Shown here: positions 21,998 to 26,536 of the stretch, one piece after another
Layout: the number at the start of each line of letters is the position of its first letter
How positions within the stretch are numbered: the stretch's first letter is position 1
Assembly: GCA_964016885.1 (NCBI GenBank)
Contig: CAXHJY010001577.1
Location: 1 to 64,000 of the forward strand
Source of the DNA: Eledone cirrhosa
Lineage: Eukaryota
Direction of reading: 5' to 3'
DNA length: 64,000 nucleotides
Position numbers and translations under genes: made by a program
Notes under the pieces: generated by a model
The model's database searches: none
Seen by the model: the letters and a program-made list of their open reading frames with translations, nothing else
Told to the model about the DNA's origin: nothing

Positions 21998-22718
21998 AAC
22001 GGAAAAAATGAAACGAAATTTTATTTCTCACACTTAGTACGGCTGTTATTTAAATATAAGTATGTATACGTAGATACATATATTTATACAGACGTACAGT
22101 AGTATGTATATATATATACATACATGCACACACATATATATATGTACGTATGGATTCACCGAACATTTATTATAATGCTCGGTGTGTTTAAACAAACAAC
22201 TCGAATTAAGCCGTACAGTGTCTAGCCACCATCGTTGCTCATTTGTTCAAAACTGACAAAGGAACGCTGTACTAGTTTCAAGCTTATTAGCTATCGTCAG
22301 CAACGTATACCTTCCTGCCAGATGGTTGAACGTCTGAAAGTATATACTTTCCTTATGCATATTAACGGCTGAGCAGCCTAATTTGCATATCGAGTGAGTT
22401 AATCGGCCGGGGTACCGAAAACGATAAACGGAAAAAATGAAACGAAATTTCATTTCTCACTGATAGTACGGCTGTTACTTAAATATAAGTATGTATACGT
22501 ACATAAATATATGTATACAGACGTACAGTAGTATGTATATATACATACATATATGTACGTATGGATTCACCGAACATTTATTATAATGCTCGGTGTGTTT
22601 GTAAACAAACAACCCGAATTAAGCCGTACAGTGTCTAGCAACCAATGTTGCTCATTTGTTCAAAACTGACAAAGGAACGCTGTACTAGTTTCAAGCTTAT
22701 TAGCTATCGTCAGCAACG
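21998..22718 (-). repeat. 413-bp HHR-bearing tandem (~1.7 units)
   Basis: Unit duplicated (HHRs at 22265 and 22678); minus-strand 3' end runs into (TA)n. Confidence 0.85.
22265..22305 (-). ncRNA. Minimal type I HHR (second copy 22678-22718)
   Basis: Minus strand: cgttg-CTGACGA-t-agct(aata)agct-t-GAAAC-TA-GTA-cagcg; palindromic stem III ACTAGT. Confidence 0.8.
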
Positions 22719-25700
22719 TATCCACTGAATTATTTTTTAATAAGTTTCCAGAGTTCTCGCTTTGCCTGGAAACTTAGACGAGAATAGACTTCCCTGACGA
22801 CGGAATGTTTCTCAGTATCTTACTCCATTCCAGAAACTAATTAGTTGGAAGTGATATTTTAGTAAGTAAGTTAATTTTATAATTTTCTTATTTTACGTCT
22901 CTCATATTATTGTTCTGCAACCCCATGCATTGAAACACAAAGTTACTAAAACAAAACCTATATATTTGCTAGCATTGATATGCATCTGTATGTATATATA
23001 TGTTACTAGATATTAATTCTTTATAATTATCTCCAAATTATTTGTCGAGCAATATTGGCCATGACTGCTGCTATGGTAGTAGGCAGGCCGCTGTCTTATT
23101 AGCAAACCACTTTCCACTGATTGACCTCTATGTCACGTGTTTGATTCTCTTTAAATTTGCCACAGACGCAGAGGCAGTGATTTTCTCAATGGCTAGGAAT
23201 TCAGTCCACGCTTTGCTATTTCCTATCCACTGAATTATTTTTTAATAAGTTTCCAGAGTCCTCGCTTTGCCTGGAAACTTAGACGAGAATAGACTTCCCT
23301 GACGACGGAATGTTTCTCAATATCTTCTTCGGAAAATATATTTACTCGATTCCAGAAACTAATTAGTTGGAAGTGATATTTTAGTAAGTAAGTTAATTTT
23401 ATAATTTTCTTATTTTACGTCTCTCATATTATTGTTCTGCAACCCCATGCATTGAACCACAAAGTTACTAAGACAAAACCTATATATTTGCTAGCATTGA
23501 TATGCATCTGTATGTATATATATGTTACTAGATATTAATTCTTTATAATTATCTCCAAATTATTTGTCGAACAATATTGGCCATGACTGCTGCTATGGTA
23601 GTAGGCAGGCCGCTGTCTTGTAAGCAAACCACTTTCCACTGATTGACCTCGATGTCACGTGTTTGATTCTCTTTGAATTTGCCACAGACGCAGTGATTTT
23701 CTCAATGGCTAGGAATTCAGTCCACGCTTTGCTATTTCCTATCCACTGAATTATTTTTTAATAAGTTTCCAGAGTCCTCGCTTTGCCTGGAAACTTAGAC
23801 GAGAATAGACTTCCCTGACGACGGAATGTTTCTCAATATCTTCTTCGGAAAATATATTTACTCGATTCCAGAAACTAATTAGTTGGAAGTGATATTTTAG
23901 TAAGTAAGTTAATTTTATAATTTTCTTATTTTACGTCTCTCATATTATTGTTCTGCAACCCCATGCATTGAACCACAAAGTTACTAAGACAAAACCTATA
24001 TATTTGCTAGCATTGATATGCATCTGTATGTATATATATGTTACTAGATATTAATTCTTTATAATTATCTCCAAATTATTTGTCGAACAATATTGGCCAT
24101 GACTGCTGCTATGGTAGTAGGCAGTCCGCTGTCTTGTAAGCAAACCACTTTCAACTGATTGACCTCGATGTCACGTGTTTGATTCTCTTTAAATTTGCCA
24201 CAGACGCAGAGGCAGTGATTTTCTCAATGGCTAGGAATTCAGTCCACGCTTTGCTATTTCCTATCCACTGAATTATTTTTTAATAAGTTTCCAGAGTCCT
24301 CGCTTTGCCTGGAAACTTAGACGAGAATAGACTTCCCTGACGACGGAATGTTTCTCAATATCTTCTTCGGAAAATATATTTACTCGATTCCAGAAACTAA
24401 TTAGTTGGAAGTGATATATTAGTAAGTAAGTTAATTTTATAATTTTCTTATTTTACGTCTCTCATATTATTGTTCTGCAACCCCATGCATTGAACCACAA
24501 AGTTACTAAGACAAAACCTATATATTTGCTAGCATTGATATGCATCTGTATGTATATATATGTTACTAGATATTAATTCTTTATAATTATCTCCAAATTA
24601 TTTGTCGAACAATATTGGCCATGACTGCTGCTATGGTAGTAGGCAGGCCGCTGTCTTGTAAGCAAACCACTTTCCACTGATTGACCTCGATGTCACGTGT
24701 TTGATTCTCTTTGAATTTGCCACAGACGCAGTGATTTTCTCAATGGCTAGAAATTCAGTCCACGCTTTGCTATTTCCTATCCACTGAATTATTTTTTAAT
24801 AAGTTTCCAGAGTCCTCGCTTTGCCTGGAAACTTAGACGAGAATAGACTTCCCTGACGACGGAATGTTTCTCAATATCTTCTTCGGAAAATATATTTACT
24901 CGATTCCAGAAACTAATTAGTTGGAAGTGATATTTTAGTAAGTAAGTTAATTTTATAATTTTCTTATTTTACGTCTCTCATATTATTGTTCTGCAACCCC
25001 ATGCATTGAACCACAAAGTTACTAAGACAAAACCTATATATTTGCTAGCATTGATATGCATCTGTATGTATATATATGTTACTAGATATTAATTCTTTAT
25101 AATTATCTCCAAATTATTTGTCGAACAATATTGGCCATGACTGCTGCTATGGTAGTAGGCAGGCCGCTGTCTTGTAAGCAAACCACTTTCCACTGATTGA
25201 CCTCGATGTCACGTGTTTGATTCTCTTTGAATTTGCCACAGACGCAGTGATTTTCTCAATGGCTAGAAATTCAGTCCACGCTTTGCTATTTCCTATCCAC
25301 TGAATTATTTTTTAATAAGTTTCCAGAGTCCTCGCTTTGCCTGGAAACTTAGACGAGAATAGACTTCCCTGACGACGGAATGTTTCTCAATATCTTCTTC
25401 GGAAAATATATTTACTCGATTCCAGAAACTAATTAGTTGGAAGTGATATTTTAGTAAGTAAGTTAATTTTATAATTTTCTTATTTTACGTCTCTCATATT
25501 ATTGTTCTGCAACCCCATGCATTGAACCACAAAGTTACTAAGACAAAACCTATATATTTGCTAGCATTGATATGCATCTGTATGTATATATATGTTACTA
25601 GATATTAATTCTTTATAATTATCTCCAAATTATTTGTCGAACAATATTGGCCATGACTGCTGCTATGGTAGTAGGCAGGCCGCTGTCTTGTAAGCAAACC

Positions 25701-26536
25701 ACTTTCCACTGATTGACCTCGATGTCACGTGTTTGATTCTCTTTGAATTTGCCACAGACGCAGTGATTTTCTCAATGGCTAGAAATTCAGTCCACGCTTT
25801 GCTATTTCCTATCCACTGAATTATTTTTTAATAAGTTTCCAGAGTCCTCGCTTTGCCTGGAAACTTAGACGAGAATAGACTTCCCTGACGACGGAATGTT
25901 TCTCAATATCTTCTTCGGAAAATATATTTACTCGATTCCAGAAACTAATTAGTTGGAAGTGATATTTTAGTAAGTAAGTTAATTTTATAATTTTCTTATT
26001 TTACGTCTCTCATATTATTGTTCTGCAACCCCATGCATTGAACCACAAAGTTACTAAGACAAAACCTATATATTTGCTAGCATTGATATGCATCTGTATG
26101 TATATATATGTTACTAGATATTAATTCTTTATAATTATCTCCAAATTATTTGTCGAACAATATTGGCCATGACTGCTGCTATGGTAGTAGGCAGGCCGCT
26201 GTCTTGTAAGCAAACCACTTTCAACTGATTGACCTCGATGTCACGTGTTTGATTCTCTTTGAATTTGCCACAGACGCAGAGGCAGTGATTTTCTCAATGG
26301 CTAGGAATTCAGTCCACGCTTTGCTATTTCCTATCCACTGAATTATTTTTTAATAAGTTTCCAGAGTCCTCGCTTTGCCTGGAAACTTAGACAAGAATAG
26401 ATTTCCTTGACGACGGAATGTTTCTCTATATCTTCTTCGGAAAATATATTTACTTCATTCCAGAAACTAATTAGTTGGAAGTGATATTTTAGTAAGTAAG
26501 TTAATTTTATAATTTTCTTATTTTACGTTTCTCATA
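22719..26536 (+). repeat. 516/522-bp HHR tandem array, ~7.3 units
   Basis: HHR cores at 22794, 23299, 23815, 24337, 24853, 25369, 25885 and 26407 (last mutated to TTGACGA); a 6-bp indel distinguishes unit types; same family as 8025-11430; ends tttctcata(ta)n. Confidence 0.93.

What the first reader, a model, noticed from the sequence alone, without database searches (positions are those of the whole stretch)
21998..26536. Back-to-back chimeric insertions: two different RNAs primed from the two sides of one TA break
The 413-bp family (minus) is fused at 22718/22719, exactly at the 5' edge of its HHR stem I, to the 520-bp family (plus), with both 3' ends pointing outward into TA tracts. The same divergent geometry recurs with heterologous partners at ~54998 (UUGAAAA family / 102-bp family), ~11567 and ~15960-16015. 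It recurs with homologous partners at 10408, 35669, 16300 and ~44690. Inverted 5' pLTRs are an established PLE trait. Inference: each end of a cleaved TA tract primes its own cDNA, sometimes on a different RNA, and the two cDNAs are joined centrally.
Basis: partly seen in the sequence, partly recalled or inferred. Interest (0 to 1): 0.72.

Follow-up and report, generated by a model that had tools for sequence, protein, structure and literature searches.

The report
Two retrozyme arrays joined head-to-head
Two different non-coding repeats that carry hammerhead-ribozyme motifs lie back to back between two TA microsatellites, in the layout known from Penelope-type retrotransposon insertions; same-family pairs like this are the rule in this genome, and this rare mixed pair likely, but not provably, formed in one event from two RNAs.

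Summary
A 429-bp-unit repeat (minus strand, 1.7 units) meets a 516-bp-unit repeat (plus strand, 7.4 units) 5'-to-5' at 22719-22721. The joint is a 3-base overlap, and both 3' ends run into (TA)n.

The geometry is a genome-wide rule for same-family pairs:
- 32 of 45 similarity-picked loci show it.
- In 800 kb of random sequence there are 24 head-to-head pairs and 0 tail-to-tail pairs without TA.
- 693 F413/F413 joints match a strict pattern.

Three results point to one concerted event per pair:
- The 5' break points are scattered.
- The two arms of a pair resemble each other more than arms of other loci (0.956 vs 0.898).
- 53 of 55 pairs end at one "long" and one "short" 3' site, like the Penelope "tail".

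This is the published Penelope-like footprint on retrozyme-like repeats, and this scan has noted it before on other DNA.

The new claim, two different RNAs in one event, is not settled. Mixed joints are rare: 11 against 693 for three partner families. This exact pairing occurs twice in 3 Gb. The window is unusually insertion-dense. Sequential insertion or a deletion gives the same structure. I put about 45% on a concerted origin.

Of the other cited joints, two (~11567, ~15960-16015) were not confirmed and one (~54998) is composite.

The parts
21979..21996 (.). Left (TA)n tract, abutting the 3' end of the F413 arm
21998..22721 (-). F413 arm: one full 429-bp unit (21998-22426) plus a unit truncated at unit position 118-121. 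Its 3' end is at the 'long' site A (unit 429). It is non-coding.
22261..22305 (-). Hammerhead-like motif of F413 unit 1 (core CUGACGA..GAAA at 22276-22300; outer limits approximate)
22674..22718 (-). Hammerhead-like motif of the truncated F413 unit. The arm ends at the first base of the motif's inner helix I.
22719..22721 (.). 5'-to-5' joint: 3-base overlap TAT shared by both families, with no TA tract and no filler
22721..26537 (+). F520 arm: 7 units (507-522 bp) plus 204 bp. Its 3' end is at the 'short' site S1 (unit 204). Unit 1 is 94% identical to the others, which are 98-100% alike.
22788..22852 (+). Hammerhead-like motif of the first F520 unit (core starts at 22794; predicted cleavage 22846/22847). 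It is repeated in each unit, with cores at 23299, 23815, 24337, 24853, 25369 and 25885.
26534..27161 (.). Right (TA)n tract (628 bp), abutting the 3' end of the F520 arm
8011..11435 (.). Same-family F520(-)|F520(+) pair, joint at 10406/10411. Outer ends are at site S2 (8011) and site S1 (11435).
34105..36724 (.). F310(-)|F310(+) pair with a symmetric joint at a natural palindrome (35662-35669). Outer ends are at unit positions 69 and 95.
54759..55264 (.). Composite mixed joint: FU(-) to 54964 | FU(+) piece 54965-55001 | F102(+) x2.6 from 55002, running into TA
28290..31958 (-). Penelope-like element copy between two TA tracts. [quoted passage not shown] It is a candidate type of enzyme source, not shown to be the mobiliser.

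Best explanation
The stretch holds 1.7 units of a 429-bp hammerhead-motif repeat (minus strand) joined 5'-to-5', through a 3-base overlap at 22719-22721, to 7.4 units of a 516-bp repeat (plus strand), each 3' end running into a (TA)n tract; it was likely made in one Penelope-type integration in which each end of a cut TA tract would have primed reverse transcription of a different RNA before the two cDNAs were joined.

Shown directly: the anatomy of the joint; that head-to-head pairs flanked by TA are the standard form of these families genome-wide; that the arms of a pair share a template source; and that a pair uses one 'long' and one 'short' 3' start site.

Inferred:
- A Penelope-like RT/GIY-YIG protein, possibly acting as a dimer, cuts (TA)n.
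- Both 3' ends anneal to short UAUA-like sites in the RNA and are extended.
- Both cDNAs stop at arbitrary points.
- Their 3' ends pair over 1-11 nt, and each is then completed on the other.

In about 98-99% of events both cDNAs come from the same family. In this locus one would have come from F413 RNA and the other from F520 RNA.
For: General mechanism:
- 20 of 29 F413 loci (1 ambiguous, 8 single arms) and 12 of 16 F520 loci are (-)|(+) pairs. None is tail-to-tail without TA.
- In 8 x 100 kb of random sequence there are 24 same-family (-,+) pairs (22 with no TA between them, 2 F413 pairs whose only TA lies inside the unit) and 0 (+,-) pairs without TA.
- 693 F413|F413 joints match the pattern; the reversed-pattern control gives 0.
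- Break points are scattered. 28 of 48 joints have 1-11 nt overlaps and 3 are blunt.
- Arm-versus-arm identity is 0.956 within loci and 0.898 between loci. 30 of 31 loci lie above the null mean; Wilcoxon p = 9e-7.
- 43 of 45 F413 pairs and 10 of 10 F520 pairs end at one long and one short site, p = 4e-14.
- Published support: both-strand cleavage and extension, two RT start sites and a predicted dimer for an anole Penelope-like protein (PMC11167929, parts 1-2 read); inverted 5'-truncated copies, a one-sided 'tail' and (TA)n targets in Penelope-like elements (PMC8557442, passages).

This joint:
- No TA and a 3-nt overlap, like same-family joints.
- F413 ends at its long site and F520 at its short site, which fits the rule.
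- Mixed 5'-5' joints recur: 11 without TA against 3 with a 12-60 nt TA remnant. That excess has p = 0.08 to 0.004, depending on the null used.
- A second F413/F520 locus (L218) and several F413/FS loci join through a short inverted piece of the partner, as expected if one cDNA end engages the other end's template.
Against: - Mixed joints are rare. There are 2 (F520) + 8 (FS) + 1 (F102-long) against 693 same-family joints.
- 0 of about 58 head-to-head joints in unbiased samples are mixed.
- The arms of a pair normally share a template, so a two-RNA event needs an exceptional loading.
- The window carries about 6 times the hammerhead-core density of random sequence: 36 per 64 kb against 72 per 800 kb. 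That density favours chance adjacency by sequential insertion.
- 4 of 12 single arms already abut non-TA DNA at their 5' end, so a flush second insertion is not exotic.
- Head-to-tail mixed joints with almost no TA also exist (L049; L201). Two-end priming alone cannot make those.
- Only 7 of 9 classifiable mixed joints obey the long/short rule, between the 50% and 96% expectations.
- No allele, read or sister-species evidence on timing is available.
Confidence: 0.45

Rival explanations
1. Sequential insertion. An F520 single arm was integrated first, with TA on its 5' side. Later an F413 RNA was integrated as a single arm into that remaining TA, and its 5' end was joined flush against F520, so no TA was left.
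For: - Single arms are common: 8 of 29 F413 loci and 4 of 16 F520 loci. 4 of 12 have no TA at the 5' side.
- 5'-5' facing mixed neighbours with TA remnants of 12-60 nt exist (L206, L207, L208).
- The window is about 6 times denser in insertions than random sequence.
- Mixed joints are about 1-2% as frequent as same-family ones.
- A head-to-tail F413-F520 joint with only 'tatat' between the two families exists (L049).
Against: - No-TA mixed joints outnumber TA-remnant ones 11 to 3.
- The arm ends fit the long/short rule. That has only a 50% chance if the arms are independent.
- It needs two single-arm events, each a minority outcome, plus a flush joint.
Confidence: 0.33
2. Secondary deletion. 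Two ordinary same-family pairs, F413(-)|F413(+) and F520(-)|F520(+), once sat side by side across a TA tract, as in locus L048. A break in that fragile TA tract, resection and end joining then removed the two inner arms and the TA.
For: - The precursor arrangement exists: L048 is an F413 pair, then TA, then an F520 pair.
- The window shows large DNA-level rearrangement around TA tracts: an 11-kb palindrome spans 1-11035.
- 3'-truncated arms that abut non-TA DNA occur.
Against: - It needs two resections of roughly 0.5-3 kb that each stop inside the outer arms.
- It does not explain why several mixed joints carry short inverted pieces of the partner.
Confidence: 0.12
3. Assembly artefact. The joint is a false join of two repeats on a small unplaced, repeat-rich contig.
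For: - The window is an unplaced contig (C1604) full of repeats and contains a suspicious 11-kb palindrome.
- Public short-read contigs could not be shown to bridge the joint.
Against: - False joins arise within shared repeats. These two unrelated families share only 3 bases at the joint.
- Comparable mixed joints lie on chromosome-scale contigs.
Confidence: 0.03
4. A DNA-level inverted-repeat element (fold-back or MITE-like, with a TA target) rather than a retro-insertion.
For: - TA target preference.
- Some families in random sequence have a fixed palindromic structure with constant spacing, for example two copies with 84 bp between cores in C3_60M.
Against: - For F413 and F520 each locus has its own break points, arm lengths and unit numbers. 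The pairs are therefore made anew at each insertion.
- The 3' ends are fixed and the 5' ends are variable.
- The two arms here are unrelated sequences.
Confidence: 0.02

Closest known systems
Complex tandem/inverted insertions of Penelope-like elements (Craig et al. 2021, PMC8557442, passages seen; Frangieh et al. 2024, PMC11167929, parts 1-2 of 4 read)
   Same: 5' truncation, partial tandems, an inverted 5'-truncated copy abutting the 5' end, an extension ('tail') at one end only, a (TA)n target, and hammerhead motifs. In vitro, both DNA strands are cut and extended and there are two RT start sites.
   Different: The arrays here encode no RT or endonuclease. The 'tails' are 49 nt (F413) and 118 nt (F520) rather than 30-40 bp. 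The 3' ends sit at short UAUA-like sites, whereas the anole element starts at a site with no homology to the target. The inverted partner here is a different family.
Animal non-LTR retrozymes (Cervera & de la Pena 2020, PMC7229834, passages; Li, Clavereau & Pollet 2026 preprint 10.64898/2026.07.22.740005, abstract and passages)
   Same: Non-coding, AT-rich tandem units of a few hundred bp, each with a type I hammerhead motif. They are proposed to be non-autonomous riders of Penelope-like elements.
   Different: In the passages I searched, those papers do not describe head-to-head arms, TA-microsatellite targets or paired 3' sites. The terms 'inverted', 'microsatellite' and 'orientation' were absent or irrelevant. 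Self-cleavage and circular RNA are untested here.
Minimal hammerheads of Penelope-like elements (Cervera & de la Pena 2014, PMC4209133, passages)
   Same: [quoted passage not shown]
   Different: That paper gives no mechanism for the opposite-strand pairs. F413 has A-U rather than G-C at positions 10.1-11.1.
LINE-1 twin priming (Ostertag & Kazazian 2001; recalled, not read here)
   Same: The second DNA end also primes reverse transcription. The result is two segments with 3' ends facing outward and a microhomology joint.
   Different: In L1 the two segments are adjacent parts of one RNA. Here both arms start at canonical 3' sites and cover the same unit positions, or belong to different families.
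LINE-1 chimeric insertions with other RNAs (U6/L1 and others; PMC6789731 and PMC13174262, seen only as search listings)
   Same: Two different RNAs end up in one retro-insertion.
   Different: Those chimeras are head-to-tail products of RNA ligation or template switching. They are not two oppositely primed cDNAs.

Membership tests
Animal non-LTR retrozymes | Head-to-tail tandem units of about 150-500 bp, each with a type I hammerhead motif | tested here: met
   F413 has 1.7 units and F520 has 7.4 units, with one CUGANGA..GAAA core per unit. Helices I and II are recovered by folding.
Animal non-LTR retrozymes | Non-coding, low GC | tested here: met
   No stop-to-stop ORF of 120 aa or more lies inside 21998-26499. 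GC is 0.35. LTR, PBS and PPT were not searched for.
Animal non-LTR retrozymes | Self-cleaving transcripts that accumulate as small circular RNAs | not testable with these tools
   No RNA run was listed for the organism.
Hammerhead ribozyme, type I / minimal Penelope-type variant | Match to a curated hammerhead covariance model | tested here: not met
   No Rfam hammerhead hit at the gathering threshold or at E up to 10. These variants have a very short helix III.
Hammerhead ribozyme, type I / minimal Penelope-type variant | Conserved core, helices I and II, an extra nucleotide 5' of helix II, and a short palindromic helix III | tested here: met
   F413 reads ACGUUG-CUGACGA-U-AGCU..AGCU-U-GAAA-CUAG-UA|CAGCGU. 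F520 reads ACUUCC-CUGACGA-C-GGAAU..AUUCC-A-GAAA-CUAAUUAG-UU|GGAAGU. The F520 homodimer fold is -37.2 against -25.2 kcal/mol for two monomers. The 10.1-11.1 pair is G-C in F520 and A-U in F413.
Hammerhead ribozyme, type I / minimal Penelope-type variant | Self-cleavage activity | not testable with these tools
   This needs transcription and cleavage assays.
Penelope-like element (as an element) | Single ORF with a telomerase-like RT and a GIY-YIG endonuclease | tested here: not met
   The arrays have no ORF. A separate copy with RVT_1 (E = 4e-7) and GIY-YIG (E = 1e-6) lies at 28290-31958. It shares no sequence with the arrays beyond TA-rich runs.
Penelope-type insertion footprint | Variable 5' truncation with fixed 3' ends | tested here: met
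   5' ends are spread over unit positions 9-126 and beyond. 3' ends cluster at F413 units 366-381 and 420-429, and at F520 units 200-207 and 322-327.
Penelope-type insertion footprint | Inverted 5'-truncated copy abutting the 5' end | tested here: met
   Met genome-wide for same-family pairs. In the finding itself the inverted partner is another family.
Penelope-type insertion footprint | Extension ('tail') at only one end of the insertion | tested here: met
   53 of 55 pairs have one long and one short 3' end. The finding has F413 long plus F520 short.
Penelope-type insertion footprint | Microsatellite, here (TA)n, target | tested here: met
   Both outer ends abut TA tracts, here and in most loci.
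LINE-1-type twin priming | The two inverted segments are contiguous parts of one RNA, with the internally primed one carrying the 5' part | tested here: not met
   Arms of a pair overlap in unit coordinates and each starts at a canonical 3' site. In the finding the arms are unrelated sequences.

The most novel reading that the evidence does not exclude
Mixed-family head-to-head joints are natural 'two-colour' records of Penelope-type integration. The integration complex loads one RNA at each end of a cut (TA)n tract, at a long and a short start site, and joins the two cDNAs by microhomology. About 1-2% of events load two different RNAs, so these events would show that the inverted arms are two independent cDNAs rather than a fold-back of one.
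Probability: 0.42. Interest if true: 0.6.

Novelty: new member of a known kind. Interest (0 to 1): 0.42.

Why it matters
The origin of the tandem and inverted structures of Penelope-like elements is described in print as 'still undefined' (PMC8557442). This genome holds thousands of short, young, non-coding riders whose insertions record that reaction. The record includes a strict 5'-to-5' geometry, arms that share a template, a long/short end rule and microhomology joints.

If even part of the rare mixed-family joints are single events, they show directly that the two arms are separate cDNAs primed from the two DNA ends. That would constrain models of a retrotransposon class that is also being studied as a gene-insertion tool.

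If they are sequential insertions, the locus is ordinary. Its value then is only as one more example of the known footprint.

Tried and rejected
- Rfam scans of the window and of 22150-23300 gave only microRNA-like hits on TA repeats and no hammerhead.
- A search for an allelic or duplicate copy of the left flank, to find an empty or half-filled site, found none. 20760-21640 is unique and 21648-21960 is another repeat family.
- Public runs: no RNA holder was listed. Four runs held as short contigs were laid on 21990-23300. They gave very high summed depth over both families, but no listed piece could be shown to bridge or to contradict the joint.
- An own-genome search with the FU unit found nothing, not even the window itself, so it is uninformative.
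- The pattern was the reverse complement of that and added nothing.
- A first arm-versus-arm identity test on 28 loci had no power: 0.954 vs 0.946 and 0.977 vs 0.970. It was replaced.
- An automated subfamily-indel concordance test gave 11 of 12 concordant, p = 0.057. My by-eye reading of the listing gave 24 of 25. Both are weaker.
- The Penelope-like copy in the window shares no sequence with the repeat families beyond TA-rich runs. Its protein has no relative among solved structures.
- Non-canonical short arms were checked as possible hidden mixed composites. Most are 3' truncations next to unrelated DNA.

Ideas considered and dropped:
- A fold-back of a single cDNA as the sole mechanism. 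The arms differ in break point and in 3' site.
- L1-style twin priming on one RNA. The arms overlap in unit coordinates.
- Hammerhead dimerisation as the device that pairs two RNAs. FU and FG show no hammerhead core by my pattern yet form the same pairs.
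Full report
**What is there**

The window is contig C1604 of a 3.0-Gb eukaryotic assembly. It is AT-rich and packed with (TA)n tracts and tandem arrays.

Between TA 21979-21996 and TA 26534-27161 lie two unrelated non-coding repeats.
- F413 has its sense strand on the minus strand. It consists of one 429-bp unit plus a unit truncated at unit position 118-121, spanning 21998-22721.
- F520 has its sense strand on the plus strand. It consists of seven units of 507-522 bp plus 204 bp, spanning 22721-26537.

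They meet 5'-to-5' with no TA and a 3-base overlap, TAT, at 22719-22721.

Each unit carries a hammerhead-like core. There are 42 core matches in the window against a mean of 1.39 in 100 shuffles. Helices I and II, an extra base 5' of helix II and a short palindromic helix III are present. These are the traits listed for minimal Penelope-type hammerheads in PMC4209133 (passages). No Rfam hammerhead model matches, and activity is untested.

No ORF of 120 aa or more lies in the arrays.

**The geometry is a genome-wide rule for same-family pairs**

I fetched 29 F413 loci by similarity.
- 20 are clear (-)|(+) pairs, 1 is ambiguous and 8 are single arms.
- None is tail-to-tail without TA.

Of 16 distinct F520 loci (24 fetched, 8 redundant), 12 are such pairs and 4 are single arms.

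I took 8 x 100 kb from arbitrary places on seven contigs. Adjacent hammerhead cores of one family gave these counts:
- 24 (-,+) pairs against 0 (+,-) pairs without TA. One search printed 21 of these as same-family without TA. One pair it labelled heterologous has the same core family. Two F413 pairs have TA only inside the unit.
- No mixed-family pair without TA remained after inspection.

A strict pattern, with the F413 core on the minus strand followed within 300 nt by the F413 core on the plus strand, matches 693 loci. The reversed-pattern control gives 0.

**Each pair looks like one concerted event**

I fetched 50 of those 693 loci.
- A joint was located in 48. The break points are spread over unit positions 9-126 and into the preceding unit.
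- 28 joints overlap by 1-11 nt and 3 are blunt. Most of the larger 'gaps' are artefacts of how I filtered the TA-rich part of the unit.
- There is no peak at unit 118-121.

In 31 loci with enough shared positions, the two arms are 0.956 identical against 0.898 for arms of different loci. 30 of 31 lie above the null mean and 15 of 31 fall in the top 5%. Wilcoxon p = 9e-7.

The outer ends are not equivalent.
- F413 arms end either at unit 420-429 or at unit 366-381. 43 of 45 classifiable pairs (from 77 loci examined) have one of each, 1 pair is long/long and 1 is short/short.
- F520 arms end at unit 200-207 or unit 322-327. 10 of 10 classifiable pairs (of 13) have one of each.
- Together this is 53 of 55, p = 4e-14 against free choice.
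- The window's own F520/F520 and F310/F310 pairs follow the rule.

This matches the one-sided 'tail' of Penelope-like elements (PMC8557442) and the two RT start sites found in vitro. In that work the protein also cut and extended both strands and was predicted to be a dimer (PMC11167929).

An L1-style twin priming on one RNA does not fit, because both arms start at canonical 3' sites and cover the same unit positions. A fold-back of a single cDNA does not fit the different break points and different 3' sites. A DNA transposon does not fit the locus-specific structures.

**The mixed joint**

The exact F413/F520 pairing is found twice in the genome under equal-stringency patterns: here and at L218 on contig C3.

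With two other partner families the counts are as follows.
- 15 F413(-)..FS(+) matches, of which 12 were fetched and 11 are independent.
- 8 F413(-)..F102-type(+) matches.

Reading these gives 11 5'-5' mixed joints without TA:
- 4 are direct.
- 3 go through a 13-40 nt inverted piece of the partner.
- 1 goes through a short F413(+) piece.
- 1 involves a long F102 relative.
- 2 are the F520 cases.

Three more have a 12-60 nt TA remnant. Most F102-type matches are simply neighbouring elements separated by TA.

So mixed joints are about 1.6% as frequent as F413/F413 joints for these three partners. In the unbiased samples, 0 of about 58 head-to-head joints are mixed.

Points in favour of a single two-RNA event at 22719-22721:
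- The TA-free microhomology joint.
- The long (F413) plus short (F520) ends.
- The excess of TA-free over TA-remnant mixed joints, p = 0.08 or 0.004 depending on the null.
- The short inverted partner pieces at other mixed joints.

Points against:
- Its rarity.
- The normal sharing of one template by the two arms of a pair.
- The roughly 6-fold insertion density of this window.
- 4 of 12 single arms already abut non-TA DNA.
- Head-to-tail mixed joints with almost no TA exist (L049, L201).
- Only 7 of 9 classifiable mixed joints obey the end rule.

I could not find an allele, a bridging read set or RNA data to date the two arms. I therefore put about 45% on a concerted two-RNA event, about 33% on sequential insertion and about 12% on deletion between two neighbouring pairs, an arrangement seen intact at L048.

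- 10408, 16300, 35669 and ~44690 are real same-family pairs. The pair at 626/631 is a copy of the one at 10408, inside an 11-kb palindrome.
- ~54998 reads FU(-) | 37-nt FU(+) | F102(+). Both long arms reach the usual 5' ends of their families.
- ~11567 is a truncated arm of a longer family next to a low-copy sequence.
- ~15960-16015 has no recognisable partner.

**Comparison and novelty**

The layout is the published Penelope-like footprint carried by retrozyme-like repeats.

The retrozyme papers do not describe it in the passages I searched. My four literature searches turned up no description of mixed-family head-to-head joints. This is a limited search, and the preprint's supplements are closed.

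Earlier notes of this scan on other windows, some from this genome, report the same head-to-head layout, the short/long end rule and the shared template. One note reports a retrozyme joined through an inverted copy of itself to a Penelope element. I obtained the corresponding results here before reading those notes.

Noticed in passing
window 1-11035: Large palindrome. 1-2314 is the inverted copy of 8738-11035 (96% identity), and 4799-5489 mirrors 5618-6248. The centre lies in the TA tract 5490-5617. It is either a real TA-mediated inverted duplication or an assembly artefact of this unplaced contig.
   Followed up: partly
window 28290-31958 (-): Penelope-like element copy flanked by TA tracts on both sides. 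[quoted passage not shown] It is a single arm with no inverted partner.
   Followed up: partly
window 37806-39224 (-): Two ORF fragments with PIF1 helicase domains (E = 2e-49 and 3e-13), possibly a Helitron-type remnant.
   Followed up: no
F413 loci L203, L204, L206, L208, L209 and others: Many F413 arms start exactly at unit position 1, one unit upstream of the long 3' site. This suggests a defined RNA 5' end that is not the predicted hammerhead cleavage site (about unit 157).
   Followed up: partly
window 16301, 54964; loci L091, L093, L096, L129: FU arms mostly begin at FU position 51-68. F102 arms mostly begin at position 1, the 5' edge of the F102 hammerhead motif, or at position 21. The 5' ends are therefore clustered in these families, unlike in F413 and F520.
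   Followed up: partly
window 22721-23225 vs 23226-26333: The 5'-most F520 unit is only 94% identical to the others and has a deletion in helix II. Three internal units are 100% identical to each other. This is not what uniform decay of a rolling-circle copy would give.
   Followed up: no
window 11458-11568 and 52948-53057: An abundant family (15 further copies in 1.3 Mb sampled) whose TA-adjacent 111 bp is constant. The window copy at 11458 is cut off at position 111, while all the others continue.
   Followed up: partly
random sample, e.g. C3_60M 86571-87111 and 97132-97526: Some hammerhead-core families occur as perfect palindromes with identical core spacing in different copies. In these families the inverted structure seems to be inherited rather than made anew at each insertion.
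   Followed up: no
L201 and L202 (C1:205.15 Mb and 205.49 Mb): Identical composite F413/FS loci about 340 kb apart, which points to a segmental duplication.
   Followed up: no
window 21648-21960: Another repeat family of about 310 bp (84-89% identity to copies elsewhere, more than 5000 first-look candidates) that ends at the TA tract left of the finding.
   Followed up: no
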